Assembly: GCF_963676685.1 (NCBI RefSeq)
Contig: NC_092347.1
Coordinates: forward strand, 90,148,001 to 90,212,000
Direction: 5' to 3'
Origin: Mytilus edulis
Taxonomy: Eukaryota
Length of the DNA: 64,000 nucleotides
Part shown: one piece after another, positions 2,802 to 53,224 of the stretch
Layout of the letters: every line of letters starts with the position of its first letter
Numbering within the stretch: position 1 is the stretch's first letter
The notes under the pieces: model-generated
Seen by the model: the letters and a program-made list of their open reading frames with translations, nothing else
Told to the model about the DNA's origin: nothing
Database searches by the model: none
Position numbers and translations under genes: made by a program

Positions 2802-4812
2802 GTATATCAAGTCAACAGAAACTATATTCTTAGATATTTACGAACAACAGTTACTATCTAATATCTTTTTTGTAACAGGTGTTGTCCCAGATGGTTGGCT
2901 GATTGGAAATATTAAACCGTTTTTCAAAAACAAAGGTGACAAAATGGACCCAAAAATTATAGACCAATCACAATTCTAAGCTGCCTTGGGAAACTAATTA
3001 CTGCATTGAGTGAGTGATTAACTAAGTTCTCAGACGAATTTCTTATCTTGAACGAAAATCAATGTGGATTTCGTAAGGGCTATTCAACAACCGATAATTT
3101 GTTTATAATTTTTAACATTTTTTAAATTCTAAAAAACAAAAACAAAAAAATTGATTTTGAAAAAGCTTTCGACAAAGTTTGGTGGGATGGACTATGGTAC
3201 AAGTTGCTAGTACAATGTAACGGTAACATATATAATATAATTGTTTTAAAATATGTATAACGGTACAAAGTCTTGTATTTCTTATAATGATTGTAAGTCA
3301 GAATTTTTCCCATGAAGTAACGGGGTACGCCAAAGGGAAAACTTGTCCCCATTTCTTTCCGCCTTATTCATGAACGACCTCGGGTCATATTTATCAAACT
3401 GTAACTTAGATGGTCTTAAAACTAAAACTAACGAAATTGAAATCAAACTAAATACATATTTGAAATTATTTGTAATTGTATATGCTGATGATACTGTGCT
3501 AATGGCAGAATCAGCTGCAGATCTCCAAAGGTAACTTGACTCATTTCAAGATTATTGTACTTTATGGAAACTGAAAGTAAATGCTGATAAAAGTAAAATC
3601 ATGGTTTTTTCTAAAGGAACACTTCCAAGAAACCTAAATATAAACGGAACAGAATTAGAAATAGTGAATAGTTTTAATTATCTAGGGATAGACTTAGCTA
3701 GAAGTGGGAATTTTAAGAAAGCGAAACAGTCCATAGCTAATAAACCTACGAAGGCTTTCTACGAGGTTCTAAAATTATGCAGAAACCACGGCCGGACTTT
3801 CAATCAAAACGCAACTAGAATTATTAGATAAAATGATAAAGCCTATTATATTGTATGGGTGCGAAGTTTGGGGTTTTAGCAATAACGAAATAATCTAAAA
3901 AAGTCCACCAAAAATTTTGCAAATTGCTTTTACATTTAAAATCTTCTGCACCATCGTATATGGTATATGGCAAACTTGGAAGATATCCTCTGATAATTGA
4001 CATAAAAAATAGAATGATATCATTCTGGGGTAAAATTCTTTCTTGAAAGGAGTCAAAATTGTTAAAAATTGTCTATAACTTATGTTTTCAATTGTCATTT
4101 GTAAATGGAGAAAAAAAAATTATGGTTAGATAACATAAAATATATTATATTTTGAATGAATGTGGCTTAACATATATTTGGAATTCACAAACTTTTATTA
4201 ACTTGAGTTGGCTACGTCTTACAGTTTGTAGAAACCTTAAAGATCAATTTGAACAGAATTGGCACTTACTGTTAGAAGAATCACCAAAAGCTGTAAATTA
4301 CAAAGTATTTAAAGATAATTTTAGTTCTGAAGCTTATTTAGATATTTTAGATAACAAAAATCTTGTAGAATTTTGTAGATTTAGAACGACGAATCATAAA
4401 TTACCCATTGAAGCTGGTAGATGGTTAAACACCAGCAGACAAAATAGAAACTGTGCTCTGTGTAAAAACAATGAACTCGGGGATGAATTTCACTTTATTT
4501 TGGAATGCCGATTTTTTTAACAGGAGAGGAAAAATTACATAGAAAAGTATAGCTATTCAAAAGCAAATATTTTAAAGTATAAATTATTAATGTCATAAAA
4601 AATGGTACAGTTGAATAACCTCTTCAAATTTATCAAAACTTTAAATAAATCTGTGTGAACTCCAGGCTTTATCTAGTATGACGCCACCCCTTTTAATTAT
4701 TTTGTAACAATTCTTGTATTAATTGAATATTGTATATATTGTAAATATTGTACATATGTATTTTTCTATACCTTGTCAAAATGATGGTTTATTGAGAATA
4801 AAGATATATATA
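2802..4812 (+). mobile_element. Degenerate 5'-truncated non-LTR retrotransposon (RT plus C-terminal CCHC; RTE-X/CR1-like), copy 1
   Basis: Fragments encode NENQCGFR, FEKAFDKV, QGENLSPFL, YADDTVL and the C-terminal CxxC...DEFHFILEC zinc knuckle. Multiple stops and frameshifts. Ends in AATAAA plus (TA)n. Confidence 0.85.
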
Positions 4813-9200: not shown

Positions 9201-10636
9201 TAAGTTCTCAGACGAATTTCTTATCTTGAACGAAAATCAATGTGGATTTCGTAAGGGCTATTCAACAACCGATAATTTGTTTATAATTTTTAACTTTTTT
9301 GAAATTCTAAAAAACAAAAACAAAAAAATGTTTTGCGCTTTTATTGATTTTGAAAAAGCTTTCGACAAAGTTTGGCGGGATGGGCTATGGTACAAGTTGC
9401 TAGTAACGGTAACATGTATAATATAATTGTAAATATGTATAACGGTACAAAGTCTTGTATTTCTTATAATGATTGTAAGTCAGAATTTTTCCCGTGTAGT
9501 AACGGGGTACGCCAAGGGGAAAACTTGTCCCCATTTCTTTTCGCCTTATTTATGAACGACCTCGAGTCATATTTATCAAACTGTAACTTAGATGGTCTTC
9601 AAACGAAAACTAACGAAATTGAAAACAAACTTAATACATATTTGAAATTATTTGTAATTTTATATGCTGATGATACTGTGCTAATGGCAGAATCAGCGGC
9701 AGATCTCCAAAGGTAACTTGACTCATTTCAAGATTATTGTACTTTATGGAAACTGAAATTAAATGCTGATAAAAGTAAAATCATGGTTTTTTTCTAAAGG
9801 AACACTTCCAAGAAACCTAAATATGAACGGAACAGAATTAGAAATAGTGAATAGTTTTAATTATCTAGGGATAGACTTAGCTAGAAGTGGGAATTTAAAG
9901 AAAACGAAACAGTCCAGAGCAGAAACCACGGACTTTCAATCAAAACGCAACTAGAATTATTAGATAAAATGATAAAGCCTATTATATTATATGGGTGCGA
10001 AGTATGGGGTTTTAGCAATAACGAAATAATCTAAAAAGTCCACCAAAAATTTTGCAAATTGCTTTTACATTTAAAATCTTCTACACCATCGTATATGGTA
10101 TATGGCAAACTTGGAAGATATCCTCTGATAATTGACATAAAAAATAGAATGATATCATTCTGGGGTAAAATTCTTTCTGGAAAGGAGTCAAAATTGTTAA
10201 AAATTGTCTATAACTTATGTTTTCAATTGTCATTTGTAAATGGAGAAAAAAAATTATGGTTAGATAACATAAAAAATATTTTGAATGAATGTGGCTTAAC
10301 ATATATTTGGAATTCACAAACTTTTATTAACTTGAGTTGGCTACGTCTTACAGTTTGTAGAAACCTTAAAGATCAATTTGAACAGAATTGGCACTTACTG
10401 TTAGAAGAATCACCAAAAGCTGTAAATTACAAAGTATTTAAAGATAATTTTAGTTCTGAAGCTTATTTAGATATTTTAGATAACAAAAATCTTGTAGAAT
10501 TTTGTAGATTTAGAACGACGAATCATAAATTACCCATTGAAGCTGTTAGATGGTTAAACACCAGCAGACAAAATAGAAACTGTGCTCTGTGTAAAAACAA
10601 TGAACTCGGGGATGAATTTCACTTTATTTTGGAATG

Positions 10637-11936
10637 TGTTATGAAAGGATTTAGGACACTTTTAGAAATAATTAGAAATTGAAATAAAGTAGAGCTTTTT
10701 AAAACAAAAATTATATATTTCTAATTTACTAAGTCAGTTAAAAGTAAAAAGAGAATATGAATGTCAAATGATTTGTTGATATAGGAAAATAAAGTAAGAA
10801 GAAAACACATAAAGAAGGTAGCGAATAACAAGCATTATCTTAGATGCATGATAAGCAAAAATAGTACAAATCAAGAACCTCATTAAGTATTTGGCACGCG
10901 TTGAGAAGGTTGCTAGGTCGACGGACAGATGTATGTCGAATTGATATTACATCCAAGGTTATAACCATATTCACAGAATGTGTAGATACTACAGCATCAT
11001 GAATATTCAGTAATACATTTAGGCACACGAGATAGTTATTAATAACCAATCAAAAAGTTTAGATACGAAGATTGACGTACACAAGATATTAATTAAAATT
11101 TAACATCTTTAATTATCAATTATTATAAAGATCAGAAATTGAAATTCTTCCAAAAATATTATTTTATCTAATTTGAGAAATAAAAGTCCAAATGTTTTTC
11201 AAAAACAAATAAATACATTTTGCATATTATGAAGCAATAAATGTTTTGGCAACACTTTCCATCGTTTGCAAAAGGAAGCTCAATCTTGTCTGGGGAACAA
11301 GAATGTCGGGTAATGAGTAGTGACTATAAAAGCAAACGTAAGTCTACTGCCCGTACATTACATTACATTACAATCCTTGTTCCAACCAGCAAATTGAGTT
11401 GTCTTATTTATTTCATTAAAAAGGTAAGTTATATAATGTTAATTAAAGTAATTTAATAAAATAAATTAATTGCAAATTAATAGGAAATAATTCAATAAAT
11501 ATAATAAGTTTAATTCGAGCAATATTTGAAATTGAAATATATATTTGTTATTGTCAAATGATAACCTTGTTGTTAATCTGTATGATTTATGCACTGTAAT
11601 ATTTTACGATCAAAAAGAAAAGAAACATTACATTACATTACAATCCTTGTTCCAACCAGCAAATTGAGTTGTCTTATTTATTTCATTAAAAAGGGTAAGA
11701 AGGCGCGAGTCCCACTCTCGCTGCCAAGCCAGTCCACAACAACGACATGTAGTCCCCAGATGTCCAAACATCCTTCTACCGACAAGAACTGTAGAAGAAC
11801 TGAGAAAACAAGAAGAGACAAATCAACACCATGTTGTTCAATTTAGAAACCACCGAAGACAATTCAAATACAAACATCAACAAGAGATACCATGTTCAGA
11901 CCAACAACAGATGACAGCAAAAACAACTTCACAACA
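10637..11936 (+). mobile_element. Solo LTR (1300 bp; 4-bp TSD, Ty3/Gypsy-like)
   Basis: Begins TGTTATGA, ends TCACAACA, flanked by an AATG duplication (10633-10636, 11937-11940). The empty site GGAATGCC is seen in LINE copy 1 at ~4502. TATAAAAG at ~11326. Confidence 0.8.
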
Positions 11937-14459: not shown

Positions 14460-15512
14460 TTATTCATGATTACTGTTATAATCAATTTTCAAGCCATCCC
14501 ATGTTATGCCATTTTCTCTTTGCTTGAATAAAATTGTCATTGGAAACAAGAAATTCAGTGCCCAGAAATCTCCAAATACAGAGCGGTAGTTCTGGTTTAA
14601 ACTGTTCTTCGATTTAACTTTTATTTTCTTTACAAATTCAAACATTGTCATATTTCTGGCTACGAACATTGTTTGTCCACTAAAATATATCATTCCAAAA
14701 ATGGCACACATCAACTCAAGATATAAATGTAAAATCAGCAACACTATATGAAAACTCATATTCTCTGTTCCAGATACCCACCGATAAAATGCAACAACAG
14801 GAATAAAATCCGTCCATGAGTATGGCGAATAAAACTCCTTCAAATATTCTACAGTGAAATAAAAACCCAAAGAACCAACCCAAATTGAATAAAATGCCCA
14901 CACATAAAAATAACGTTGATTTCTGAAACCGATACATGTTCCAGCAAAGTAACAATGGTGGTCACGTTTTAAGATGCATGTTTTACAAATGTCACAGTGG
15001 TGTGTTCTAGGTGGTATATCTATTTTACACTTTTCACAAAACGTAAAAGGTAGTTCTCCATTGTCGTGTTGAATATTCATAACTTCTGTCGCATGTCCAT
15101 TGGATAAAGTACTTTCGGAAGCATACGATTCGAAGTATTCCGGTGGATTTTCCCACCTTTCTTTCATGTGAACTGTCGGACTGTCACGAGTCTTTTGAAA
15201 GTCAGTACTATACAATACTGTGCAAAAATAGTTAATTAACCATTCCAGGCACAGAAAAACTGCTAGTACTTTCATCCAATACCGAGTCCATCCATCTTCA
15301 AAAAGTCCAGGCAGAATATAAACCAAGAAAACGTACAACTGTGTCGTTGACTGAAACGTAAACAAAATACGGCAAAATTGTTTGAAGGCTTTGGTACTCT
15401 CTGAACTTTTCTGGCGACGACTTTTAACTTTTTCCATGAAGGACAGTTCTCTGTACGGTTTGTCCGCAAGTTCTTCTTCTGGTTTAGACATATTTATTCT
15501 TACTGTTGCCAT
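14460..15512 (-). CDS. DHHC-type palmitoyltransferase (ZDHHC22/24-like), single coding exon, 350 aa
   Basis: Cys-rich domain CEKC...PPRTHHCDICKTCILKRDHHCYFAGTCIGFRNQRYF, several TM segments, C-terminal N-x-x-x-V-F-G motif. Acceptor TTTTTTCCAG 11 nt upstream of the ATG (15525-15524) indicates a 5'UTR intron. Confidence 0.93.
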   Translation of the reverse strand: MATVRINMSKPEEELADKPYRELSFMEKVKSRRQKSSESTKAFKQFCRILFTFQSTTQLYVFLVYILPGLFEDGWTRYWMKVLAVFLCLEWLINYFCTVLYSTDFQKTRDSPTVHMKERWENPPEYFESYASESTLSNGHATEVMNIQHDNGELPFTFCEKCKIDIPPRTHHCDICKTCILKRDHHCYFAGTCIGFRNQRYFYVWAFYSIWVGSLGFYFTVEYLKEFYSPYSWTDFIPVVAFYRWVSGTENMSFHIVLLILHLYLELMCAIFGMIYFSGQTMFVARNMTMFEFVKKIKVKSKNSLNQNYRSVFGDFWALNFLFPMTILFKQRENGITWDGLKIDYNSNHE

Positions 15513-16309
15513 TTTTCACTGGTCTGGAAAAAAACATATAAATTTAATGAAATGATAATTTTACTGAACTCGTTGCTTAGAACGATAACGAAACTTTTTT
15601 TACAGAAATGATACGTTTATATTATAGGTGTATGTTTAGTCTCAATCACGTGATACAGAAATGATACGTTTATAATATGGTTGTATGTTCAGTCTCAATC
15701 ACGTGACATGTGTCTGTTATATATACTAAAACGTTAGTGCCTACGATTATGTTTTAAATTGTTTTCTTTGTCAAATATAACTTTGCCATTGAATAATTTT
15801 GACAGTTATTATTATATAGCTCTTCAACTGTTTCGGTTCTTACACATTCTTGTCATTCAAATATTCGACATTAAGCGTTACTGATCATCTATATCAAGAA
15901 AAGCGCTTCGAAGGAAGGACATTTATAAAGTGTTGTTTCTAGTTTTTTATATCATGACGACGGTTTTGTTGATATGTTCGATTTTGATACAGATGTGTTT
16001 CAATCCCATTTTTCTGTAAACCCCTCTTTTATCATTTTATGTATGAAAAACTTAAATTAAAAAATAATATTTACAGTATCAGTAACTTTACTGCACCAGA
16101 TGTCATTTCGACAATTTATGTTTTTGTAGTCCCAAGATGTATGATATATTAAACAAAATACTATATACGCTTGAAAAGTTATAAAATAAAAAATGACCAA
16201 ACCTGGAAGCGGAACCAGGTTTATGCATGAGGCAGAAACATTTCTTATATTACAATGATTACCATATATAACAGTAAATGTCAATAAATTTTATCCGTTT
16301 AATTTATAG

Positions 16310-18243
16310 AAAGTACATCAGTACTCAGTCGGGTATTTGGCTTGCGATAACCACAGGAACTGACAGTCCTAGCAGGAACTGACAATACCTTAGTACTCAG
16401 TCGGGTAGTTGGCTTGAGATAACCGCAGGAACTGACAAACCTCGCAGAAACTGACAATACCTTAGTACTCAGTCGGGTACTTGGCTTGAGATAACCACAG
16501 GAACTGACAGTCATCGCAGGAAATGACAATACCTTAGAACACAGTCGGTTAATAGACAGGAACTGACAATACCTTAGTACTCAGCCGGATATTTGGCTTC
16601 AGATAACCACAGGAACTTACAGTCCACGCAGAAACTGACAATACATTAGTACTCAGTCGGGTATTTGGTTTGAGATAACCAGAGGAACTGACAGTCCTCG
16701 CAGGAAATGACAATACCTTAGAACACAGTCGGGTAATAGGCAGGAACTGACAATACCTTAGTACTCAGTCGGGTATTTGGCTTGATGTAACTGAAGGAAC
16801 TGACAGTCCTCACAGGAACTGACAATACATTAACACAAAGTCGGGTATTTGGCAGGAACTGACAATACCTTAGTACTCAGTCGAGTAGTTGGCTTGAGAT
16901 AACCGCAGGAACTGACAATACTTTAGTACTCTGTCGAGTCTTTGGCTTGAGATAACCGCAGGAACTGACAATACCTTAGTACTCAGTCGGGTAGTTGGCT
17001 TGAGAAAACCACAAGAACTGACAGTCCTCGCAGGAACTGACAATATCTCAGTACTCAGTCGGGTAGTTGGCTTGAGATAACCACAGGAACTGACAACATC
17101 TTAGTACTCAGTCGGGTAGTTGGCTCGAGATAACCGCAGGAACTGACAATACCTTAGTACTCAGTCGGGTATTTGGCCTGCGATAATCACAGGAACTGAT
17201 AGTCCTCGCAGGAACTGACAATATCTTAGTACTTAGTCGGGTAGTTGGCTTGAGATAACCGCAGGAACTGACAGTCCACGCAGAAACTGACAATGCCTTA
17301 GTACTCAGTCGGGTATTTGGCTTGAGATAAGCACAGGAACTGACAGTCCACGCAGAAACTGACAATACCTTAGAACACAGTCGGGTAATAGGCAGGAACT
17401 GACAATACCTTAGTACTCAGTCGGGTATTTGGCTTGATGTAACTGAAGGAACTGACAGTCCTCACAGGAACTGACAATACATTAGAACAACGTCGGGTAC
17501 TTGGCAGGAACTGACAATACCTTAGTACTCAGTCGAGTAGTTGGCTTGAGATAACCGCAGGAACTGACAATATCTTAGTACTCAGTCGGGTAGTTGGCTT
17601 GAGATAACCACAGGAACTGACAGTCCTCGCAGGAACTGACAATATCTAAGTACTCAGTCGGGTAGTTGGCTTGAGATAACCACAGGAACTGACAGTCCTC
17701 GCAGGAACTGACAATACCTTAGTACTCAGTCGGGTCGTTGGCTCGAGATAACCGCAGGAACTGACAGTCCTCACAGAAACTGACAATACCTTAGTACTCA
17801 GTCGAGTATTTGGCTTGTGATAACCGCAGGAACTGACAATACCTTAGTACTCAGTCGGGTAGTTGGCTCGAGATAACCACAGGAACTGACAGTCCTCGTA
17901 GGAACTGACAATATCTTAGAACTCAGTCGGGTAGTTGGCTTGAGATAACCACAGGAACTGACAGTCCTCGCAGGAACTGACAATACCTTAGTACTCAGTC
18001 GGGTAGTTGGCTCGAGATAACCGCAGAAACTGACAGTCATCACAGGAACTGACAAAACCTTAGTACTCAGTCGGGTAGTTGGCTCGAGATAACCGCAGGA
18101 ACTGGCAATACCTTAGTACTCAGTCGGGTATTTGGCTTCAGTTAACCGCAGGAACTAACAGTCCTCGCAAGAACTGACAATAGTTACCTTAGTACTCAGT
18201 CGGGTATTTGGCTGGCTTGAGATAACCGCAGGAACTGACAGTC
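16310..18243. repeat. Minisatellite, 72-bp unit with 51- and 39-bp variants
   Basis: Unit about CAATACCTTAGTACTCAGTCGGGTAGTTGGCTTGAGATAACCACAGGAACTGACAGTCCTCGCAGGAACTGA, with an internal 21-bp subrepeat. Accounts for ORFs 16299, 17108 and 17798. Confidence 0.92.
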
Positions 18244-18409
18244 CATCTGCAGATATTAAACTAATTAAATACATTCTCATAAATATATTTATTCCGTTTG
18301 GGTTTTTTTTCTGTAATTTCTTATTTCAGTTTTAATAGATAAAGAAGAAATATGACATATAGATTCAAAACAAAAAATCTATACAAGCCCATTACAAACC
18401 CAATAAGTA

Positions 18410-20182: not shown

Positions 20183-23100
20183 AGAAGTGCCATAATTGTA
20201 TGGTTTAGTATTCATGAATAGAGCAAAAGAAGGCCCTCATTTTAGTCAGGTTAACTTACAGATAACATTCCACTGAAGTTAAAAATAGATCTAGGCATAA
20301 AACATGAAAGAGCAGGTCTTACAAGGAAGAAAAACGTTGTCATCTTCGATCGTAATATTGCTATTTAATCTGAATGTATAATTAAGTATGGGGTAATACA
20401 CGGAACACTAAATAACTTACTTTATTTGGCACGATGATTTCAATCCGAGGAAGAGTTGAATTTCTGAAGGTGATCAAAAAGAGAAACCATCAAATGTATA
20501 CTATTTGTTTATCTAGCAACACACCTTAACAACCAGGGGCCTGTTATTCAATTTATCGTAAATTTAATGCAAGTAGTATTGCTAATCATCAGTAATACAA
20601 GCTTTGCTTTTTAATTTTTTTTGCTGTACAATTTTTAATCATTATATTAAGCTAAACGACAAGTTGAACAACGGACCACAGGTAAATTTCTTTTTTTGTT
20701 CATTGTTAGTATAATAAAATACATTAAACAAAAATATCGACACAACTGTCATGCGCATTTGTAAATATCTACATTTTTCAGGTCATTAACCTACCCTTTA
20801 AAAATCCAAATATGTAAATATGAATAAAAAAATAATACAAAACTTAAAGTAAGGTGATGAAATGGAAAATATATTAACGCCACCGAAAAAAAGGAACAGA
20901 GTGTCATCCGATAAATAATACTTTTTATTGCTGAATCGTAAAAAATATTGTGACAGCAAGACCACTTTTAGAAGTGGAAAATTACAATTTTAACTTGGAT
21001 TATTTTTTTTTAAAGGTGAGGTGCATTCCCGGCAGGGGGAGGGGCAAGCGACTGTGATATTTTTTTTAAAGTTTCAATTTGTCTGGTACAATTTTCAAGT
21101 TAATATGAGGCAAAAAATGCAATAAAATGTAAAAAATTACTATTGAAGACAATTACTCCAACAACAAGTCGACTGAAGATTTCGGCCATTATAACTTGTA
21201 TTGCTGATCATTTGTACTATTTAAAGTTTCTATTTCTCTATTACAGTTTTCAAGGCAAAAATGAAAAGAAAATGTGAAAAATCGTCAACGAAGGACTATA
21301 ACTTCAATAAGGAGTCGACTGAAGATTTCAGCTATGTTGACGTATTTGTTGATCCTGTCAAGCTGATCATTTTTGCTTTTAAATGATTCCATCTGTCTAG
21401 TTTAGTTTATATGATATTAGGCAATAGCACCAACACATTGTAATCAAAATACTGAAGTACTGAACATCGGATGACCGCAGGTTCTTGTAGATACTCACAA
21501 GCTCTTGAAAGTGAGGTTAATGTACAGATATATTTTTTTCTGAGACAAGTTCGTGCATGGAAGATAAATAAATGACAGGGAAATCAACCTCATCATAATA
21601 ACTATTATAACGTACTGATACAAATCAGTATACTCTGGTTTGTTGTTATAAAATACTATATTAATATTTGTATATTACAGCTACGTGTATATATAATTTT
21701 CATCCTTGTCTTGTTGATCATTATTGCTATTGTCTGTCTATCATAATTTTCGAGATAATACGCAACATTTTTAAAATGGTAAAATTTGTTATTCAATGAC
21801 AATAAGTCCGTAATAAGTCGTCTGATAATTTAAAAGTATAGAAAGAGCTCATCATTTTTGCACCTGTCAGATTTTCTCTATTTTTAGCGGTTTGCAAAGT
21901 AATAGGCAAAACTTGCATTTTACCCCATATGATTTTTTAGCCATGTCGGAAATCTTGGTAGGCTATGACACAGGACACATTTTTTTTTTAAACTAGATAC
22001 CCCAATGATGACTTTGACCAAGTTTGGTTAATTTTGGCTTAGCTGTTACTGTTTGAGATGAGAAAGTTTTTGTAAAAATTAGCAGACGATGACGGACGAA
22101 GGACGCCAAGTGAAGAGCAAGGTGAGCTACAAAAAAAAAAGCTGAATTCAGATTCTCGTAAATTGTTTTTCATTTACATTTCGGGGCCTTTTATAGCTGA
22201 ATATGTGGTATCGGTTTTGCTCACTGTTGAAAGCCGTTCGGTGACTTGTAGTTGTTAATTTCGGTGTCATCTGGTCTCTTGAGGTAAGTTGTTTCATTTG
22301 CAATTATACCACATATTCTTATAATTATATAATCGTGATGATTTATGATATATATACGTAATCTCCCTTTGTGTATCGGATGTCCTAAACAGAAACGTCT
22401 ATTCCGACCAAACCGTCATGAAACCAGAATGATTCGAACTGTTCAGGTCTATGAGCTAGCTCTCAAAACTGCTTGTATTCTTTGCTATGGTCAATTTTGT
22501 TATTGTATTTTTTGTATCATGTTTGTTAATTGTTAAAATATATTTGAGTTTATATTTTCTGTTTTATTATAGAATTAAGTGCTGGATATTTTTTAGTTGT
22601 CTGTAAATGTAATTTTTTCTGTCTATTGATAGGGAGGAAAACGGGAAGGACTGAAATCTCAAAACATTATCAAACCCCGCCACATATTCATGTACATGTC
22701 CATAATCCGGAGCCTCGTCAGATGTTGTCTCATGTCATACTTTATTAGTATTGTTGTTTTGGAAAATTTGTTGTTCATTGCAGATCTCTAAAGTTTCTGC
22801 TTCATATACATACACTTGTTTTAGACTCGGTGCGATAGCATGGCTTATTATATACACACACGTTTGTTGTGATGACTTTAATATGTTATCTGTCAGCTGT
22901 CTTATAATTTGTTTATGATATCTTACATATCCCCTGTATTCATACATATATAGAAATATTTAAAATTTAAAGAGTTCATTTCGTCTACTCTATGCACGCA
23001 CGAACTTATATTCCACCCCACTTCGGGCTACGAAATTACCGTGATGTTTTCGCCATCTGAGTTACAATTATAAAACCTCTTAACAGTTATTGTATGACTA

Positions 23101-23209
23101 ATGTAGAAGCTGAAAGTGTTTTTTCCTAAATTATTTAATTAAACGATTTTTCTCCAATAGAAGTATGTCTTCTCAAAAACATACTGAATCATATTTTAAC
23201 AGGAACTCC

Positions 23210-23857
23210 TTAAACTATTGATGGTGGCGGTCGGGCAGGAGTAGTTGGTGCTGGTGATGGTGTGGCAGGACTACTCGGGCCTGGTGATGGTGGTTGTGTG
23301 GCAGGACTACTCGGCCCTGGTGATGGTGGTTGTGTGGCAGGACTACTCGGGCCTGGTGACGGTGGTTGTGTGGCAGGACTACTCGGGCCTGGTGATGGTG
23401 TTTGTGTGGCAGGACTACTCGGGCCTGGTGATGGTGTTTGTGTGGCAGGACTACTCGTTGGGACTTCTGGTGGTGGTGGGGCAGGAGAACTCGTTGGTAT
23501 AGATGGTAAAGGTGGTGTTGTACCCTGAGGTGGTTCACCAGATGAACATGTGAGCGTTGTACAAGTGAACGTTGGGACGCTGTTAGTATTATATTTGAAA
23601 ATGAATGTCATGGTATATTGCTGAACGGCCATTTCTTCTGTATTAATAGCATACACATCTTTAATTGGTTTTGGACCACGTCCTCGGCCGCCTCCTTGTT
23701 TTCCTTTACGACCACCTCGTTTTCCTTTACGGCCACCTTTTTTACCGCCCTTCTTTCCTCCTCTCATTTTCTTATTGCCCATTTCAATGGTACTGCCAAG
23801 TTCTTCAATTCTGTTATTTCCACGACGTCGTGCTAATACACTGAATGGTTCTTCCAT
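23210..23857 (-). CDS. Coding exon 2 of a 407-aa secreted low-complexity protein (Gly/Lys/Arg-rich insert, Pro/Ser/Thr tail)
   Basis: Acceptor TTTCTTTTTATATCAATATAG directly before codon 1 (23859-23858), phase 0, joins GFE|MEEPF. 12-aa repeats (T/P)PSPGPSSPATQ, stop TAA at 23212-23210. Confidence 0.85.
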   Translation of the reverse strand: MEEPFSVLARRRGNNRIEELGSTIEMGNKKMRGGKKGGKKGGRKGKRGGRKGKQGGGRGRGPKPIKDVYAINTEEMAVQQYTMTFIFKYNTNSVPTFTCTTLTCSSGEPPQGTTPPLPSIPTSSPAPPPPEVPTSSPATQTPSPGPSSPATQTPSPGPSSPATQPPSPGPSSPATQPPSPGPSSPATQPPSPGPSSPATPSPAPTTPARPPPSIV

Positions 23858-24746
23858 CTATATTGATATAAAAAGAAATGAAATTAATACTCCGACGACA
23901 ACGAACATATTTACACCTCTGGACAGTCGTTGACAAGTTTAATAAGAGGGGTTTGATTGGCTTAACCAGCTGAGAACTTAAAGCTGAGCTATAAATAGAA
24001 ATATTATGAATGCAGGCCTAGTAACATGCAGTACGGATACCTTAATAGTAATTAGATATAGACTATCAACAATTAGATGATAAATTAAAATTCAATATTT
24101 TCCGACGCCAATAGATGAAAAGGGTTACCACCTTCATAATGTACACATGCCTACCTATATGACGATATAATTCATTTTTGGGGGCCTTTATCTTGCTCTT
24201 CGGTGTGAGTCTAGGCTTCGAGTTGAAAAACGTACTTTGACCTACATGTGTTTAATGGATTACTTTTACAAAGTGTGATATTGATCATAATGGACAGTTG
24301 TCTCATTAGCACTCATACCAGTTTTTCTTATATCTATTTATTTTAGGGGATATGCAAATGTAACGCACTTTCTTAGTCTTTTTGTTTTTAGTATACGAAA
24401 AATCATTCTCATGTAAATACAGGAATTGAGTATTAAGTCAGTTGAACTGAAAAATTCCCCAAAATATTTAATGATAAAAAAAAATCGCATTATAGAAAGA
24501 AGGAAGTCCATAGACGAAGGGAACACTATCTAAGAAACCAGAAGGCAAAAAAGAAATAAAGACGAAAATAACATGTCAGTAAACAAAAAAAGCACGATAC
24601 AGATTAATGAAATAAGGAAACTTATGTGAGTTTCAACATAAAAACTTTCGTTTTTTTATTTTTTTTAACCCAATCGTTTCTTTACTATTCAAGTTTTCAT
24701 TTCATGCATTAATACTTTCTTTTTTTAAAGTGATAAAAATTTATAC

Positions 24747-25322
24747 CTCGAAACCCCATATTGTTTCAGAAAAGCTAATTTTAGCGATGAAATCTCCCTC
24801 TCCTGTTGTTGTGGACACATCAAATACACAAGTTTCTTCTTTCTCAGCAGTTTCTTCTTCATCAGGGCAATCTTCATCGAATTCAACATCTTCATCAAAT
24901 TCAACGTCTTCATCAAATTCAAAATCTTTGTCGAATTTATCAAATCCGAAATCTTTATCCTCTTTATCAAATTCAAAATCTTTATTTTCTTTATCAAATC
25001 CAAAATCTTTATCGTCTTTATCAAATTCAAAATCTTTATTTTCTTTATCAAATCCAAAATCTTTATCGTTTTTATCAAATCCAAATTTTTTGCCAAAACG
25101 ATGTTTAGAAAATTTCGTTTTATCAACAAGGTTATCATCAACGTCATCAATGGAGCTTAAATCAGACTGACTCAAATCTAGACCATCAACATCATCAAAA
25201 ATGTCGGGAAGGTCGTCTAGTTCTTTACTATCTCTACCATTTTGGTCATCTGTGTTTAGTGGGTTATTAGGTTTGCAATGGCACCCAAGTGCAATAAGCA
25301 CTACAATCAATATTATTCGCAT
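24747..25322 (-). CDS. Coding exon 1 of the 407-aa secreted protein (signal peptide plus Asp-rich KDF(G/E)FDK repeats)
   Basis: Signal-like MRIILIVVLIALGCHC, acceptor TTTTTCAG 1 nt before the ATG (25325-25324), donor GAG|GTATAA at 24746 in phase 0 with exon 2. Confidence 0.85.
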
Positions 25323-25732
25323 TCTGAAAAAGATGAGGTATGTGTTTGCATTTCAAGGAAATATAAAACTAGTCTGATGATTTTTTTTCCAATACTCTTC
25401 AACGTTAAACGTTTCATTTCTGTTTATTCAAAACCATTAATTCAATATCAACATAAGAAGATGTGGTAGGATTGTAAGTGAGATAACGTTCTACCAGAGA
25501 CCAAATGACGTAATTGTTAACAACTATAAGTCCCAATGCGGCCTTCGACAAAGAGTAAAACCCATATGGTATATAAAGCAAGCTGTTAAAAGGTCCTGAC
25601 ATTATAGAGTTGACTTAGTGTAAAAATTCGTTACAAAATACGTTGCGTCAACTAAATAAATGTCATTCCTTTTTACAAGGATAACCTCAAGGGAATCTTT
25701 AGTAGAGCTATTAATGAGAATTTCTGGACTAA

Positions 25733-26245
25733 TTTTTATGCCCCACCTACGATAGTAGAGGGGCATTATGTTTTATGGTCTGTGCGTCCGTTCGTCCGTC
25801 TGTTCGTTCGTTTGTCGGTCTGTTCGTTCGTCCGTCCGTTCGTTCGTCCGTCTGTTCGTTCGTCGGTCTGTCCCGCTTCAGGTTAAAGTTTTTGGTCAAG
25901 GTAGTTTTTGATGAAGCTAAAGTCCAATCAACTTGAAAATTAGTACATATGTTCCTTATGATATGGTCTTTCTAATTTTAAAGACAAATTAAACTTTTGA
26001 CCCCAATTTCACGGTTCACTGAACATAGAAAAAGAAGTGCGAGTTTCAGGTTAAAGTTTTTGGTCAAGGTAGTTTTTGATGAAGTTGTAGTCCAATCAAC
26101 TTGAAACTCAGTACAAATGTTCCCTATGATATGATCTTTCTAATTTTTATGCCTAATCATATTTTTTACTCATTTTCACGGTCCATTGAACATGGAAAAT
26201 GATAGTGCGAGTGGGGCATCCGTGTACTTTGGACACATTCTTGTT
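25733..26245 (+). mobile_element. HINE/Helentron-like non-autonomous element in the 5'UTR intron
   Basis: T-run, subterminal IRs ATGCCCCAC / GTGGGGCAT, (GTCC/GTTC)n microsatellite, two ~169-bp core repeats (from 25877 and 26046), 3' hairpin GTGTAC..GGACAC. Confidence 0.8.
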
Positions 26246-27250: not shown

Positions 27251-27296
27251 CTCTGTTTTGTATATGACTGAAACACTCGTACTTAGTCGTTAAATA
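27251..27296 (-). promoter_or_regulatory. Candidate core promoter and non-coding first exon of the secreted protein gene
   Basis: On minus: TATTTAA (27296-27290), initiator-like TCAGTC ~27 nt downstream (A at 27269), then donor GAG|GTAAGT at 27250. Confidence 0.45.
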
Positions 27297-35589: not shown

Positions 35590-38455
35590 AGAATAAACAA
35601 CACGAACCCCACCAAAAACTAGGGGTGATCTCAGGTGCTCCGCAAGGGTAACAGATCCTGCTCCACATGTAGCACCCGTCGTGTTGCTTATGTTATAACA
35701 AATCCGGTTAATAGTCTCATTCGGTAGTTCACATTCACAAAATGGAAGGGGATTGTAGTTACGACGTAAGGAACATATCCGAAACAGTCAAACTAATAGA
35801 TTGAAAATAAACTTACAACGCCATGGCTAAAAAATAGAAAGACATACAGACAAATTATAATACACAAGACATAAAATAGAAAACTAAAGACTAAGCAGCA
35901 CGAACCCCCACAAAAAAGGCAGATCCTTCACCACATATGGCACCTGTCGTATTACTTATGTTATTACAAATCCGGTAAATAGTCCAATTCGGTAGGTCAC
36001 ATTCGTGAATAGGGTAGGGTATATTTGTTACGACGTAAGGAACATTTCCGATATCATCTGTGAAACGGTTATTCCATAGTGGTCAACCAACTCGTGATGG
36101 CGTCCGTAAAATTTACGAAATGATGATTTCAACTTCACCATTTGGAACTCTTGATTTAATAGCTTCCTTGTGAGCAACAACCCTCTATCAAGAAAAATCA
36201 TGATAGGAAATGCAAGCACGGGAATATCGTATCAATTGGGAGATATATACACTGTATGCAGGTGCTGCTGGATTGTTACTACTTAGAAATGGAAAGTTCA
36301 CATTTGGAAAGCTGAAATCATCTCTTTTGTCGTAAAGTTTTGTTTTCAAACGACCCTCATTGTCAATTTCTAGATATGAGTCAAGATATGAGACCGACTT
36401 AACTGTATCTGTTGTATCCTTTATCTCTAGCCCAATGGGATAGATGCATTCGACATAGTCACAAAATTTTGAATTATTCAGTGAAAGAACATAATCTATA
36501 TAGCGGAAAGTAGAGATAAAGGATATGGCTAACTTCTTATCTTTCTTCCTAAGAAGTTCCTGTATGAAGTCAGCCTCATAATAATAAAGAAACAAGTCGA
36601 CAAGAAGAGGGGCAAAATTGAAATGCCGATAGTCTGTTGAGTAACACGTCCTCCGAACGTAACAAATATGTTGTCAATCAGGAAATCAAGCATCTTGATA
36701 ATGTCAGTTTCAGAAAAATTTTTGTTTGAGTGATCCTTTACAAAGTAGGATTTATCCCTTCCCAAGACAAGATACTTGTATCTTAGTTGGCCATTCCTTT
36801 TTATGAAACAAAGCAATACCAACTCTTTCAATTTATCTTTTAGTTTGGAATGAGGAATACTTGAATAAAATGTAGAAAAGTCAAATGTTTTAATACTATT
36901 ACAGGATGAAAGAGCGTTAGATTGTATGTACTCTAAAAGATCATTGGAATTTTTAATTATCCACATCCGATTCACGCCACACTAGAATAGGCAGTTTCAC
37001 AATAACTTTGAAGTCCGTCTTAGATTGCTGATAAAATAGATGTTAATAATTTAGAAAGAGGTTTCGTGGAGCACTTGGAAGACCCAGCAATATTCCTTTG
37101 TTTGTAAGGACACTTATACAGTTAAGGTATTCAATACAGTGATTGGAAATCCATTTCATCATTATTAGTTGAAATTCCAAAGAAACATAAAACAGATCCA
37201 TGATTTTCCAGGATTTCCTCTTTGGTAAGTGTTGTGAGGATATATGTTGGGTTTCCAAGTAAAGTGTCAATACCTAATTCGTTTATCAAGCAGTAAATGT
37301 AATGAGTTTTACACACAAAAACGATGTTATTTGGGGCTTTATCTGCGGGGACAACAACATATTTGTCATGACGGTAGGATAAGTGTTTTGAAACATTAGG
37401 GTCTTTAAAGATTGACGTAGCATGGGCATTGATAGACGCATTCAGTTTATAACACTTCCGTACGAAATGTGTTATTGAGAGGTCCAAAATATCGTGAGCC
37501 GAAATCCATCAATTGAAAATACAACTTTAATTTTTTTATGGATTCAGTCAAGGATTATGTCAGACAGCGAGAGGGAAGACAAAGACAAAGACACTCTTTC
37601 CGAATGAATTAAGACAGTGAGGTCGTTGATACAAATCAGAATAAAGAAACTGGTAAGAACGTGGCCAGCCGGATTATATGTAAATTGGGAACTAGCACAA
37701 GTGCAATCAGCAGGTTTAGACTTGAAGTCGTCAAGACTGAGATCATACAAAACGTGCTTGTAATTGAAAATTTTAGTTGCAATAGGTTTGGTATAGGTAA
37801 AAGAAATGTTTGGTACAGAGTGGTCTTTGAAATAAGGAGGTATTTTCGATTGAACTTATTTATGATGAAGGATGTTGCCTAAGTTGGCGCCATCGAGACT
37901 TTTGTTGGCAAAGGAAAGATTAAGAAAAGATCCTTTCTCGTTTTCATCTTTTCCAATTTCCAATGCGGACTAGCTTGAAAAGTCTGTGACTTGCAATGTC
38001 CGAAATTATAGCTGTAAGTTTGTATTGGTTTGCATGAGGGTTTGTAACATTGGTTTCCAAACATTGGTTTCCAAACATAAATTGAACAGAGAATGAAGTT
38101 TTGAACGGGGTAATTATGAATAAGGCTTCGTGCGAATGTGATGAATACCTTACGGTTTTTGTATAAATGGCAGCAAGTCATTAATAGAGACATCATGCAG
38201 AGTACGTGATGTATAATGGCGATGACCATGATATGACTGCGTCTACGTCGAGGAGTAGAGTTGAAAATATTCATCACATTCACCGAGCTACACGATGGAC
38301 TAGATAGAACCTATACCATCAATTTTGTCATTGCAACCATATGGTGTTGCAGTTCCCAATTGTCTAACCCAGTAGTCCTCTTTTTGTCTACGGAGAGGCG
38401 TTGCAAGATAAGGATGGTTAGAACTATGGTATATTTTTTCGCTAATGCGTACTGT
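35590..38455 (-). mobile_element. Penelope-like retroelement (Naiad-type: GIY-YIG upstream of RT), degenerate, in temptin B intron 1
   Basis: RT motifs YWI..LHK, TFDFSTFY, FRYIDYV, YDKRDDFSF, YISQLIRYSRAC. Upstream remnant EKIY...RRQKEDYWVRQLGTATPYGCND is the C-terminal half of a GIY-YIG domain. Partly duplicated 3'UTR at 35590-36020. Confidence 0.8.
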
Positions 38456-45049: not shown

Positions 45050-46820
45050 TATTGTCGGTATTTTTAACGATCATTCTGTTAAAGAACAAATTTTGGGATA
45101 TTTTGATAATTGAGCTCCCTCTTATTTGTTATGTTTACAGGAAATCTACCCGGAAATATTGGTTTATTAATAGCCAAGTGTGTAAAGATGTAACTATCAG
45201 TGACAATACACATACGTCATGTAATTTTGCATTATTTCCAAATACATTTTTAGCCCAATTTCCCATGGAATAACAGGAGATCTTAACGTCGTTCGCGACC
45301 GAGAGTTAAGATCATTCCTCAGTAAATTACTTAAATATAGTCCCCGGTCAATCATTAATTTGATTGAGTGTCGTAATATTATCCATGACTTACTCAGTAC
45401 TTACTGTATGAAATGAACAAAACTAGAAAAAGATGACATGAAATCTTTGGACACTAATGAACATAGTTAATTTACGTATACAACATTTTACTCTAGACAA
45501 GGAATTTGTTTTGTCCCGGTTGATGAAGCTGCTAATGATATCATTAATGTTTGACAAAAAATTAACATTGACGTTCTGCAAAAGGAAACAACGAATTCTT
45601 TAATATTCCAACTGACTCCATATTAAGTAACAAACATTAAATTATTAGATATAGACCGTTGGATTTCCCGTTTGAATGGTTTTACACTAGTAATTTTGGG
45701 GCCCTTTATAGCTTTTTGTTTGGGGTGAGCCAAGGCTCCGTGTTGAAGGCCGTACATTGACCTATAATGGTTTACTTTTATAAATTGTTATTTGGATGGA
45801 GAGTTGTCTCATTGGCACTCATACCACATCTTCCTATATCTATTAACTTTTAGCTACTTCTTTACAAGCAAAACCAAATACAATGAAAGTCCCAACTATG
45901 TACTGGCTTTCGAATCTACACAAAACTTTAACACCTTACAAATATAGATTTATTTCGTCTTCAAGCCAATGTTCCACTACTAACTTATCTATTATATTTA
46001 CTAGTACACTTGGTCCGATCAAAAACCTGATAATAAATTGTTCAAATAAGGCCATTGGAAATAGTGGAATTAATTACTTTTGGAAGTACTTGATAAACTG
46101 CATGCATATATTGGTGATTTTGAATCTGTTCAAAGTTTTGACTTGTCTACCTTATATAACGCTTTGTCTCATATTCTTCCTAAGAAAACATTCACACATC
46201 TAATTAAAAGGCCATTTAAAAAGTTAGAATGCGTATACATATGTTCAAACTCTTTGATGCCAATTGGACATGCTTTAATACTTTATATACACTTGATTTT
46301 TTACTAGATAACATTTTTATTCGCTTTGGAGATTCAATTTAACGTCAAGTTATCGGAATTCTATTGGACACTTATTGCGGACCTGATTTTGTATTGTATT
46401 GAGTTACAATTTATGACTTAAAAAGGCAAAGACCAATCTTATACAAAAATTTAACAATACAGGTAGATATTTGAATGCTATATTGAATCTAAATAATGAC
46501 AAATTCAGTATGTATACCAAAGAAAGTATCTTGTTGAACTAGCTTTAAACAAAGTTAATACCAACAATGACCACCGTCCTTTCCTCGATCTTGATATCTG
46601 TATCATTCACGGGAAGCTTAATGCAAAAATGTATGATAAAAGAGATGATTTTTTATTTCCTATCGTAACTCATCCATTTTTAGATGGTGACGTTCCATTT
46701 TTACAATCTTATGGTGTTTATATATCTCGACTTGTACGATTCGCTCGTGTATGTAACAACGTATTAGATTTTAGAAAGAAATTATGTATAACTGAAAAAA
46801 TATTTCACCTTGACTTTTCA
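45050..46820 (+). mobile_element. Degenerate Penelope-like element RT region (second subfamily)
   Basis: PLICYVY, TGDLNVV, MYWLSNLHK..PYKYRFI, SFDLSTLY, YDKRDDF, YISRLVRFARVC fragments. Interrupted by a SINE-like repeat at 45645-45843. Confidence 0.75.
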
Positions 46821-47704
46821 AATCAAAATAGTTAAAAAGTCAAACCAGTAACAAAGTTGAAGAACATTTTAAATAAGTTGTGCCAAATTCGGCTTAGGTA
46901 GTCTTTTCCTCGGATAAGAAAATCCTTAGTTCGAATCAAAATAGTTATTGGGGACCCAAAATTCCTACTAAGATGTGCCAAATATGGTTTAGATTATCTT
47001 TTTCTACGTTGGCTATAGGTATAGAGGGGGTTGAAATCTCAAAAAACATGTTATACCCCGCAGTATGTTTGCTTAATATGACGTTTATTATGGATGTACA
47101 AGTACCCGGCCACTTCCACTTGTATTTTTGTCCATCTGATGAGTTGAGCCTTTTTCAACTGTTTTTTTTTTTATAGTTCGTTCTTATGTTGTACAGTTAT
47201 ACCACTGTCCCAGGTTAGGGGGGTTGGGATCCCGCTAACATGTTTAACTCCGCCACATTATTTATGTAAGTGCCTGTCCCAAGTCAGGAGCCTGTAATTC
47301 AGTGGTTGCCGTTTGTTTATGTGTTACATATTTGTTTTTCGTTCATTTATTTATACAAATAAACCGTTAGTTTTCTCGTTTGAATTGTTTTACATTGTCA
47401 TAATGGGGGGCTTTTAAAGCTGACTATGCGGTATGCGCTTTGTTCATTGTTGAAGGCCGTACGGTGACCTATAGTTGTTTATGTCTGTGTCATTTTGGTC
47501 TCTTGTGGACAGTTGTCTCATTAGCATTCATATCACATCTTCTATTATATATATATATGGGTTTAGGGGCAGCTAAAGGACGCCTCCGGGTGCAAGAGTT
47601 TCTAGCTACATTGAAGACCCATTGGTGACATGCGGCTGTTGTCTGCTCTTAATAAAATTCATAATAGTCTGCTCTTAATAAAATTTATAATAATCCTGCA
47701 CAGG

Positions 47705-50864: not shown

Positions 50865-53224
50865 AAAACGAAGAAAACTTACCTTCATAATACTGGATAC
50901 TAAATTACATAAACTCCATATAAAGAACGATACATAGCTGGGTCTTCAAAATGTTCTACTAAACATCTTTCTAAAGTACTGACTACTATTCTTTCTACAG
51001 TTAAAGATGGGCTTCAAAAATATTGTGATGAGATATATTCTACTACTGGTGTTAACTAGATGTGGATTCTCAAAAATTCGAAAGATCTACTGCTTAATCT
51101 TCGATCACAATTTTTGCAATTTTGCAGCAACATAAAAACTTTTGATTTTTCTACGCTATACACTACTATTCCCCATGCCCAGTTGAAAGATAGACTTCCC
51201 CATCTCATAAAACAGAGCTTTTTCTTTTCTATAAAAATGGGAATCGAAGATACAAATTTCTTGTTTTGGGTTACAATAATTCATATTTTGTGAAGAATCA
51301 CACTGAATCTTCCAGAAAATATACTGAAGATGATATTATCAAAACGCTGGACTTTTTTTTATCGACAATATATTTGTTGAGTTTGGAGGACAGTCGGTAT
51401 TTGAATGGGTACTAATTGTGCACCCCTGCTGGGCGATTTGTTTTTGTGCTCGTATGAAGAAGAATTCATTCAGAACCTTCTAAAGGACAAAAAGAAAAAG
51501 CACCTTGCGAAATTCTTTAATTTTACTTTCCGATATATTGATGATGTTCTATCATTGAATAACCCATATTTCAGCCAATAATTACATCTCATATATCCCA
51601 GTGAACTTGAAATTAAGGATACTACTGATACTAGTAGGACTGCTTCATACCTTGATCTTTTCCTCAATATTGACGCAGATGGACGACTTCACACGAAAAC
51701 CTATGACAAACGGGACGATTTCAACTTCCCAATTATCAATTTCCCATTTCTCAGCAGTAACATACCCTCTGCCCCTTCGTTTGGTGTTTACATATCACAA
51801 TTGATACGTTATTCTCGTGCTTGTTCACATCATACGGACTTAATATACATGAGTGTGCTCCTTACGCAGAAACTGCTTCAACAAAGTTATGAGGAGGACA
51901 GATTAAAATTGACACTCCGTAAATTTTACGGACACCATCACGAATTGGTGGATCCATACGATGTGTCTTTGACCAAACTAGCTAAGGACATTTTTACCAC
52001 ATGGTAGATTGTGGTTTGTCATTACGTCGTCTTATCTTTTAATTACCAAACGTGACTTATTCCCGATTGTGACTGTTTTGCTGAGTGTGCATTCGCATTA
52101 CTATAAGACGTGTTACGGTACTTATCTATCCCAAATGCATGTATTTAGTTTAAATGTTTAATGTTATATTTGTAATTCTCATCGGATTTTGTCAAATGTG
52201 TTGACGTCTTTTCTATTATATTCATGTGTTATGGTAAAGAAAATTCATCACCGCCTTCATTTATTAGATTTGATTTTGTTCAACGTAATCTGTACGATGT
52301 TTTACGTTTGAAGTCAGATTCAAAACAAACCAAACACAGCTATATAATATAGTTAATTGCTATCTTAGTTTGCTATTAATAAGTATTGAAATGTGCATTG
52401 TTATTAAGTATTTAGTTCAAATATAATCTTAAATCAATCCTAATTCTATCTTATTAATTTTTTTTTGTGTTGCATTTGGTGGGTTATGTAATGTCTTTCG
52501 GTTCTTTCCTGTAATTAGTTAATGCTTCAGTTTTATCATGTATATCTTTTGTATAGTCATTTTAGAATATTTACTGTTTGCAAAAGTATAAGTTATTTTA
52601 AATAATAGGGATGTTCTGGTACCTAACAGAAAATCCTGGCCGTTTTTGGCACAACTTTTTTGAACTTTTGGTCCTCGATGCTGTTCAACTTTGTACTTGT
52701 TTCGGCTTTCAAACTTTGTATCTGGGCGTTACTAGTGAGTCTTGTGTGATAAAAAGTGCACTTCTGGCGTATTAAAATTTTAAACTTGTTGCCTTTTGTT
52801 TGTTATTATTCGTGTGTTTCTTTGTCAACCCACCATTTTTTCCTTTAAAAATTTCCTGCACCAAGTCAGGAATATGACCATTGTTATATTATAGTTCGTT
52901 TCTGTGTGTGTTACATTTTAACGTTGTGTTTCCGTTGTGTCGTTTGTTTTCTCTTATTTTTTAGTGTGAATTCACATTACTATAAGACGTGTCACGGTAC
53001 TTATCTATCCCAAATTCATGTATTTGTTTTTGATGTTATATTTGTTATTCTCATAAGATTTTGTCTAATGCTTACTCCGTGTCTATGTGTGTTACATTTT
53101 AATGTTGTGTCGTTGTTCTCTTATATTCAATGCGTTTCCCTCAGTTTTAGTTTGTTACCCCCATTTTGTTTTTTGTCCATGGATTTACGAGTTTTGAACA
53201 GCGGTATACTACTGTTTCCTTTAT
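50865..53224 (+). mobile_element. 5'-truncated Penelope-like element with a 3' hammerhead cassette, single insertion
   Basis: RT motifs (KLHKTPYKERYIAGS, TFDFSTLY, MGTNCAP, FRYIDDV, YDKRDDF), stop at 52007, internal direct repeat (52083-52200 vs 52962-53070), degenerate hammerhead at ~52725-52772, flanked by TCAG/TCAG. Confidence 0.82.

What the first reader, a model, noticed from the sequence alone, without database searches (positions are those of the whole stretch)
23210..25322. Uncharacterised secreted block-polyampholyte protein (candidate biomaterial or biomineral protein)
Seen: splicing two ORFs gives 407 aa: signal peptide; Asp-rich region; 9-aa repeats alternating KDFGFDKEN and KDFEFDKDD; acidic EFDEDV repeats; a Cys-bounded segment containing RGGKKGGKKGGRKGKRGGRKGK; 12-aa PSPGPSSPATQ repeats. 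Known: mollusc shell-matrix and byssal proteins are often secreted repetitive low-complexity proteins, and alternating Phe/charged peptides (FKFE type) self-assemble into beta-sheet fibres. Inference: segregated acidic and basic blocks could drive self-coacervation, Ca2+ binding or fibril formation. I do not recognise the protein.
Basis: partly seen in the sequence, partly recalled or inferred. Interest (0 to 1): 0.7.

Follow-up and report, generated by a model that had tools for sequence, protein, structure and literature searches.

The report
Unlisted mussel charge-block secreted protein
This is a real, spliced, single-copy mussel gene for a likely secreted protein made of long acidic repeats, a short strongly basic loop and a proline-rich tail, with no relative in the databases searched; it likely helps organise a calcium-rich outer matrix such as shell rather than the byssal glue, and its core may be a worn-down cellulose-binding domain.

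Summary
The 889-nt GT–AG intron (24747/23857) is spliced out in contigs of 3 of 4 runs laid, giving a 407-aa protein. A neighbouring gene places the window in Mytilus. The gene is single-copy in G000 and has no hit in Pfam, three word-based protein searches, a full HMMER scan of 1.84 billion proteins, the ESM Atlas or the paper searches. The mature chain is mainly a polyanion (net −27, pI 4.5) with one +15 loop, and it has only 3 Tyr and 2 His. The three runs that express it show no reads on the mfp-3 byssal gene tested, so a byssal role is unlikely. New lead: residues 164–296 align along nearly a whole bacterial CBM2 (cellulose-binding) profile (0 of 3000 shuffles, 1 of 94 real decoy domains reach the score). 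The three surface Trp are lost and the basic loop is inserted. Standard HMMER, hhalign and AlphaFold did not confirm this, so it is about even odds. Best reading: an acidic matrix protein that likely works like pearl-oyster Pif80 (calcium- and charge-driven condensation) without belonging to that family. Tissue and function are untested.

The parts
27251..27269 (-). Candidate short 5' untranslated exon (predicted only): TATTTAA about 27 nt upstream, TCAGT initiator-like start, GAG|GTAAGT donor
   Evidence: Sequence read; too short to be seen in contigs; the initiator/TATA reading is recalled knowledge. A splice acceptor (TTTTCAG) lies directly before the ATG.
24747..25323 (-). Coding exon 1 (ATG at 25322; residues 1-192)
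   Evidence: contigs of X1, X2, X5 cover parts of it (24747-25309 in pieces)
25275..25322 (-). Likely signal peptide, residues 1-16 (Cys14, Cys16)
   Evidence: Hydrophobicity; cleavage site inferred
25122..25271 (-). Asp-rich block, residues 18-67, net -15
   Evidence: 4 listed amino-acid changes among alleles (residues 20, 39, 65 plus silent ones)
25083..25121 (-). Short basic linker (net +6) holding an RFGKK motif at residues 75-79
   Evidence: K78 is N in run X1
24905..25085 (-). 9-aa Phe-x-Phe acidic repeats, alternating G and E forms (18-aa higher period), about 6.7 copies, net -10
   Evidence: TRF; a 72-nt in-frame net deletion in run X5
24870..24928 (-). 6-aa EFDEDV repeats, about 3.3 copies, followed by Cys152 and an acidic spacer
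   Evidence: TRF; 18-nt deletion in run X2
24747..24833 (-). First part of the putative beta core (residues 164-192; Cys165; the only Trp, W189)
23858..24746 (-). 889-nt GT-AG intron, phase 0
   Evidence: Joint in 3 of 4 runs laid
23771..23857 (-). Second part of the putative core (residues 193-221)
   Evidence: alignment
23672..23770 (-). Gly/Lys/Arg loop, residues 222-254, net +15, no acidic residue
   Evidence: 24-nt in-frame insertion (one extra unit) in runs X1 and X2
23546..23671 (-). Third part of the putative core (residues 255-296; Cys291, Cys296); low-confidence beta hairpin
   Evidence: AlphaFold pLDDT about 55
23210..23545 (-). Pro/Ser/Thr linker and 12-aa repeats (5.9 copies), uncharged, then stop; likely O-glycosylated (inference)
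   Evidence: TRF
22870..23209 (-). 3' untranslated region, with ATTAAA at 22877-22882
   Evidence: The X1 contig ends at 22870 with 18 unaligned letters; ATTAAA

Best explanation
The gene is spliced and expressed, and it likely encodes a secreted acidic matrix protein that would gather calcium and condense with itself or partners in a mineralising outer matrix such as shell. SHOWN: splicing, single copy, block layout, net charge -27, in-frame variation of repeat number among alleles, and expression in runs that lack mfp-3. INFERRED: (1) the Asp/Glu blocks bind Ca2+; (2) the Phe-x-Phe 9-mers act as weak hydrophobic stickers; (3) residues 164-296 fold as a small disulfide-held beta sandwich, at about even odds a degenerate CBM2 without its surface Trp; (4) the +15 loop projects from that core and pairs with acidic blocks of neighbouring molecules or with anionic polysaccharide; (5) the Pro/Ser/Thr tail is a glycosylated spacer. 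Because the chain is strongly net negative, condensation would need Ca2+, as for Pif80, rather than self-neutralisation alone.
For: Splice joint and polyadenylation-like 3' end. Charge blockiness above 500 of 500 shuffles. Mature pI 4.49 is in the range of acidic larval shell proteins with pI under 4.5 and no database match (PMC6231486, passages). Pif80, a charged repetitive region with an acidic cluster, forms Ca2+-induced coacervates (PMC5540247, passages), and Pif/BMSP proteins carry low-complexity inserts inside a split beta domain (PMC11291548, section 13 and passages). All 8 listed amino-acid changes among alleles fall outside the putative core. CBM2 alignment covers columns 5-96 of 98; score 61 is reached by 0 of 3000 shuffles, 7 of 1000 local shuffles and 1 of 94 real C1q/LamG decoys.
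Against: No tissue evidence at all: run labels are coded, and no marker for mantle or larva was tested. None of the motifs is in the readable supplements of five shell papers (the only hit was ribosomal protein S3a); most are small, and a sixth was unreadable. Coding SNPs do not show purifying selection overall (5 silent, 8 changing; p 0.13-0.44). Only 40 of 241 difference rows were shown, and two X5 differences in 24747-24903 were not visible. The CBM2 link fails standard tests: no Pfam hit, hhalign probability under 1%, HMMER whole-core 54-242 of 1000 shuffles, z only 2.2-2.5 against the mussel's own CBM2-like domains, about the same as against an unrelated C1q profile (z 1.95), and z 1.8 under the strictest gap setting. 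The family was picked by eye before testing.
Confidence: 0.45

Rival explanations
1. A secreted mucus, gut or surface-coat glycoprotein, possibly descended from the CBM2-plus-linker front half of a mussel GH9 cellulase gene, that binds particles or polysaccharide through charge and is not involved in mineral.
For: The layout core + Pro/Ser/Thr tail resembles the mussel's CBM2-like + linker + GH9 genes L019 and L020. The mucin-like tail. The CBM2 alignment. The last 10-16 residues of exon 1 match the exon ends of 14 mussel CBM2-like domains best of about 395 registers, at a phase-0 intron.
Against: No GH9 remnant found in the window. The intron-anchored register differs by 13 residues from the best full-length alignment, so the two arguments cannot both be right as they stand. 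The long acidic repeats are not explained.
Confidence: 0.25
2. A component of an egg coat, larval cuticle or other non-mineral extracellular coat that assembles by charge pairing.
For: Restricted expression (present in X1, X2, X5; absent in 1,315 million letters of X21), and fast change in low-complexity parts. A stage-limited gene would also be easy for annotation to miss (inference).
Against: No direct evidence; tissue unknown.
Confidence: 0.14
3. A precursor cut at basic sites into peptides, including an amidated Arg-Phe-ending peptide at residues 75-79.
For: An RFGKK motif and several KK/KR/RR sites; reading Gly-Lys-Lys as an amidation signal is recalled knowledge.
Against: Only one such site. 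It looks like a worn first copy of the 9-mer. Run X1 has Asn at residue 78, which removes the dibasic pair. The 9-mers are not flanked by dibasic sites, and there is no R-x-K/R-R furin site.
Confidence: 0.06
4. A byssal (adhesive thread or plaque) protein.
For: Secreted, repetitive, mussel; Gly/Lys-rich loop.
Against: Zero depth on both mfp-3 exons (L011:89-157 and 1501-1641) in X1, X2 and X5 (one of several paralogs, 82% likeness). A review states that all MFPs have isoelectric points above 8 and that no polyanionic plaque protein is known (PMC9999432, passages). Only 3 Tyr and 2 His.
Confidence: 0.05

Closest known systems
Pif80 (pearl oyster) and BMSP100 (Mytilus), Pif/BMSP family (PMC5540247, PMC11291548)
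   Same: Secreted, highly charged, repetitive, with an acidic cluster; low-complexity charged insert inside a beta domain; GGK also occurs in the Pif80 peptides (abstract start of PMC4971512). This is what it likely works like.
   Different: No VWA or CBM14 domain, no laminin-G signal (z -0.5), acidic and basic residues in separate blocks rather than DDRK units, Phe-rich 9-mers, mucin-like tail.
Orphan acidic shell-matrix proteins of bivalve larvae (PMC6231486)
   Same: Secreted, pI near or under 4.5, Asp/Glu-rich, no database similarity.
   Different: Those were found in shell by proteomics; this one has not been.
CBM2 cellulose-binding module (Pfam PF00553; PDB 1EXG) and the CBM2-like domains of mussel GH9 cellulases
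   Same: About 100-residue Cys-bounded core; the protein's only Trp, Pro196, Gly213-Ser214, Asn220 and the final Phe/Pro columns fall on conserved CBM2 columns; followed by a Pro/Ser/Thr linker.
   Different: The three other conserved Trp columns read Thr173, Gly205 and Met223; an insert of about 40 residues; no catalytic domain; below every standard threshold.
Mussel foot proteins (mfp-1 to -7, preCols)
   Same: Secreted repetitive mussel proteins.
   Different: Acidic not basic, Tyr-poor, not co-expressed with the mfp-3 gene tested.

Membership tests
Pif/BMSP | VWA domain(s) | tested here: not met
   No Pfam family at E<=1 for either exon; no unassigned region long enough
Pif/BMSP | Chitin-binding CBM14 domain | tested here: not met
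   only four Cys in the mature chain
Pif/BMSP | Partial laminin-G domain around a low-complexity insert | tested here: not met
   Core against a profile of 17 mussel LamG domains: 255 of 400 shuffles score as high; these were general LamG domains, not Pif/BMSP ones
Acidic shell-matrix proteins (functional class) | Secreted, low pI, Asp/Glu-rich | tested here: met
   pI 4.49, D+E 18.7% of the mature chain; signal peptide by hydrophobicity only
Acidic shell-matrix proteins (functional class) | Mantle or shell-field expression | not testable with these tools
Acidic shell-matrix proteins (functional class) | Present in shell extracts | tested here: inconclusive
   No motif hit in supplements of five shell papers; small or other-species files; one unreadable
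CBM2 (PF00553) | Pfam score above cut-off | tested here: not met
   halves scanned separately; true mussel half-domains did score (E 1.6e-4 and 0.028)
CBM2 (PF00553) | Full-length match to the CBM2 column pattern | tested here: inconclusive
   Positive in the custom test; weak
CBM2 (PF00553) | Three surface aromatic residues for crystalline cellulose | tested here: not met
   Thr173, Gly205, Met223 at the three Trp columns; need for three aromatics from PMC9100146 passage; which columns are the surface ones is recalled
CBM2 (PF00553) | Beta-sandwich fold | tested here: inconclusive
   Halves fold at mean pLDDT 49 and 41; the spliced domain was not folded
Mussel foot proteins | Basic pI and Tyr/Dopa content | tested here: not met
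Mussel foot proteins | Expression with foot-gland genes | tested here: not met
   0 of 3 expressing runs cover the mfp-3 gene tested

The most novel reading that the evidence does not exclude
A mussel took the cellulose-binding module of a digestive cellulase gene, dropped the enzyme and the sugar-binding tryptophans, grew a polycationic loop out of the old binding face and a calcium-binding Phe/acid repeat array in front, and so built a one-chain, charge-switched scaffold for shell or larval-shell mineralisation: a route from digestive enzyme to biomineral protein that the paper searches here did not find described.
Probability: 0.2. Interest if true: 0.68.

Novelty: new variant of a known kind. 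Interest (0 to 1): 0.42.

Why it matters
It is an expressed Mytilus gene that seems missing from the protein collections searched, although those hold its neighbour from four Mytilus species, so proteomic searches of shell would probably have missed it. Its blocks are cleanly separated and vary naturally in copy number, which makes it an easy test case for calcium- and charge-driven condensation in biomineral matrices. If the CBM2 origin holds, it shows how an 'orphan' matrix protein arises from an old enzyme module. Orphan secreted repeat proteins are common in molluscs, so without tissue or function data the interest is moderate.

Tried and rejected
Homolog searches, all empty: the search for homologous proteins with exon 1 'longer', exon 2 residues 1-110 'longer' and 'near'; 'shorter' was not searched. 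phmmer over 1.84 billion representatives, 0 hits at E<=0.001. ESM Atlas twice. PDB sequences, only chance hits. Phage tblastn. Exact look-up of exon 2. Own-genome searches found only the gene itself; 7 weak extra places were low-complexity or chance. The GD_N family did not ring anywhere, including controls, so that search says nothing. The run finder listed no holder on record as RNA (8); the RNA evidence comes from the lay-up. Six motif strings gave 0 papers. Topic searches showed no paper on this protein in their listings. The foot-gland transcriptome paper I wanted was not held, and a guessed id was another paper, so byssal catalogues were not checked directly. AlphaFold of the two halves was low confidence, so no fold search was run; a beta-roll idea for the 9-mers got no support. 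The two exon pieces as two chains gave 'no answer', which is no evidence either way. The intron-position argument for CBM2 origin was not accepted because it conflicts with the best full alignment. A GH9 remnant was not found.

Full report
Observation. Joined at 24747/23857 they give 407 residues, with a canonical donor and acceptor in phase 0. Contigs of three runs (X1, X2, X5; two organism labels, three studies) carry exactly this joint and have no depth in the intron bin next to exon 2. A fourth run, X21 (raw reads, about 6% read), has no reads on the exons, so expression is restricted. The stretch is held by 20 listed runs under three organism labels. The neighbouring DHHC gene clusters with M. 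californianus, M. galloprovincialis, M. edulis and M. trossulus proteins, so the window is Mytilus.

Anatomy (unless noted). Residues 1-16 are hydrophobic and likely a signal peptide. Then come an Asp-rich block (net -15), a short basic linker (+6), about 6.7 nine-residue Phe-x-Phe acidic repeats with an 18-residue higher period (-10), EFDEDV repeats (-12), an acidic spacer, and a segment from Cys165 to Cys296. That segment has ordinary composition on both sides of a 33-residue Gly/Lys/Arg loop (+15). An uncharged Pro/Ser/Thr tail with 5.9 twelve-residue repeats ends the chain. The mature chain has 46 basic and 73 acidic residues and a pI of 4.49. Its charge is more blocky than 500 of 500 shuffles. 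It is a polyanion with one cationic patch.

Variation. Three indels among the runs are all in frame and all inside repeats: +24 nt in the loop (X1, X2), -18 nt in EFDEDV (X2), net -72 nt in the 9-mers (X5). Slippage of codon-sized units would give this anyway, so it is weak evidence of selection. Of 13 listed coding SNPs, 5 are silent and 8 change a residue, which is not significantly constrained (p 0.13, or 0.44 counting transitions only). All 8 lie outside the putative core. The tool showed only 40 of 241 rows, and two X5 differences in 24747-24903 were among those hidden.

Relatives. None was found. The gene is single-copy in the own-genome searches (these score only best candidates). Pfam, three word searches, full phmmer of 1.84 billion representatives (28), the ESM Atlas (14, 35) and PDB sequences gave nothing. 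The same collection holds the neighbour gene, so the protein appears unannotated there. Six motif strings occur in no paper of the held library and not in the readable supplements of PMC5854119, PMC4517812, PMC7747718, PMC10639161 or PMC6641155 (I saw only these search results, and the one hit was ribosomal S3a). Supplements of PMC8194122 could not be read. Subscription papers and bioRxiv supplements on Mytilus shell, larval shell and foot glands were out of reach and could hold it.

Byssus test. I located the mfp-3 cluster and laid the same four runs on its best gene. X1, X2 and X5 have zero depth on both exons; X21 has a trace on one. This is one paralog at 82% likeness, and contigs can drop short transcripts. 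A review states that all mussel foot proteins have isoelectric points above 8 and that no polyanionic plaque protein is known (PMC9999432, passages). With 3 Tyr and 2 His, a byssal role is unlikely.

The core. By eye (recall) residues 164-296 looked like a CBM2 beta sandwich. I gathered 120 actinobacterial loci with a motif scan, dropped 2 with unusable sequence and reduced 118 to 36 at under 60% identity; 6 of 6 checked are Pfam CBM_2. I also gathered 13 mussel CBM2-like exon pairs, two of them in front of GH9 exons. Results against: HMMER put the whole core within shuffle range (54-242 of 1000) and only the last 46 residues near significance (7-100 of 1000, by profile); hhalign gave under 1%; against the mussel profile z was 2.2-2.5, close to z 1.95 against an unrelated C1q profile, and 3 of 60 C1q decoys scored as high. 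Results for: with an aligner allowing one long insertion, the core covers columns 5-96 of 98 of the bacterial profile with score 61. That is reached by 0 of 3000 shuffles, 7 of 1000 local shuffles and 1 of 94 real decoys, and it exceeds 2 of the 13 true mussel domains (range 38-124). It held at z 4.4-5.3 in three gap settings and fell to 2.6 and 1.8 in two others. In that alignment the protein's only Trp (189), Pro196, Gly213-Ser214 and Asn220 sit on conserved columns, while the three other Trp columns read Thr173, Gly205 and Met223, the last two next to basic residues. Three surface aromatics are needed to bind crystalline cellulose (PMC9100146, passage), so normal CBM2 binding would be lost. 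Separately, the end of exon 1 matches the exon ends of mussel CBM2-like genes at a phase-0 intron (rank 1 in 5 of 9 window lengths, ranks 2-3 in the rest), but in a register 13 residues away from the best full alignment, so I do not count it. AlphaFold on the halves was uninformative. I put CBM2 origin at about 0.5 and do not file the protein as a CBM2 member.

How it likely works. Acidic shell proteins bind calcium, and orphan ones with pI under 4.5 occur in larval shells (PMC6231486, passages). Recombinant Pif80, charged and repetitive with an acidic cluster, forms Ca2+-induced, salt-sensitive coacervates that hold amorphous CaCO3 (PMC5540247, passages). Pif/BMSP proteins carry charged low-complexity inserts inside a split laminin-G domain (PMC11291548, section 13 and passages). 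By analogy I infer Ca2+ capture by the acidic blocks, weak Phe stickers, a basic loop held out by a compact core to bridge polyanions, and a glycosylated spacer tail. It is not a Pif/BMSP member (no VWA, no CBM14, no laminin-G signal). Confidence 0.45, mainly because tissue is unknown. A mucus or gut role (0.25) and a coat role (0.14) remain open.

Verdict. A real, apparently unlisted gene of a familiar broad kind (secreted low-complexity mollusc matrix proteins), with an unusual block order and a testable lead on its origin. Earlier notes of this scan describe other orphan repeat proteins in the same genome (unchecked), which tempers the surprise. Interest 0.42.

Noticed in passing
window 14460-15515 (-): Single-ORF ZDHHC22-like palmitoyltransferase (PF01529), in the protein collection with Mytilus orthologs.
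   Followed up: yes
window 60398-61435 (-): Single-ORF rhodopsin-family GPCR (PF00001, E 2e-51); the exact sequence tried was not in the collection.
   Followed up: partly
window 16320-18244: GC-rich compound tandem array built from 72-, 53- and 40-nt units; longest stop-free frame 104 codons, so probably non-coding.
   Followed up: partly
window 54247-55569: 69-nt satellite, 19 copies, 92% match, giving long open frames on the minus strand.
   Followed up: no
window 25733-26245: Highly repeated element (168-nt dimer plus CGTT-type microsatellite) upstream of the gene, very deep in all RNA runs and strand-biased in X21.
   Followed up: no
window 4134-4520, 9354-10682, 36188-37508, 45847-46835, 51582-52007: Broken frames that look like reverse-transcriptase retroelement fragments by eye (recall); three were scanned and had no Pfam hit at E<=0.001.
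   Followed up: partly
G000 C2, C3, C11, C13 (L019, L020, L141-L163, L194-L209): At least 13 mussel CBM2-like domains share a phase-0 intron at the same place, and the two that Pfam found score below its cut-off. A divergent group (L149, L151, L152) has lost the first Trp, and one C11 copy (L197) has a stop codon.
   Followed up: partly
G000:C5:15.98-16.16 Mb (L011-L018): Tandem cluster of mfp-3-like genes, 17 exon matches.
   Followed up: partly
G000:C1:89.46-89.95 Mb (L218, L221-L223, L226, L231-L233): Several single open frames of 2,600-3,000 codons carrying repeated laminin-G-like domains.
   Followed up: no
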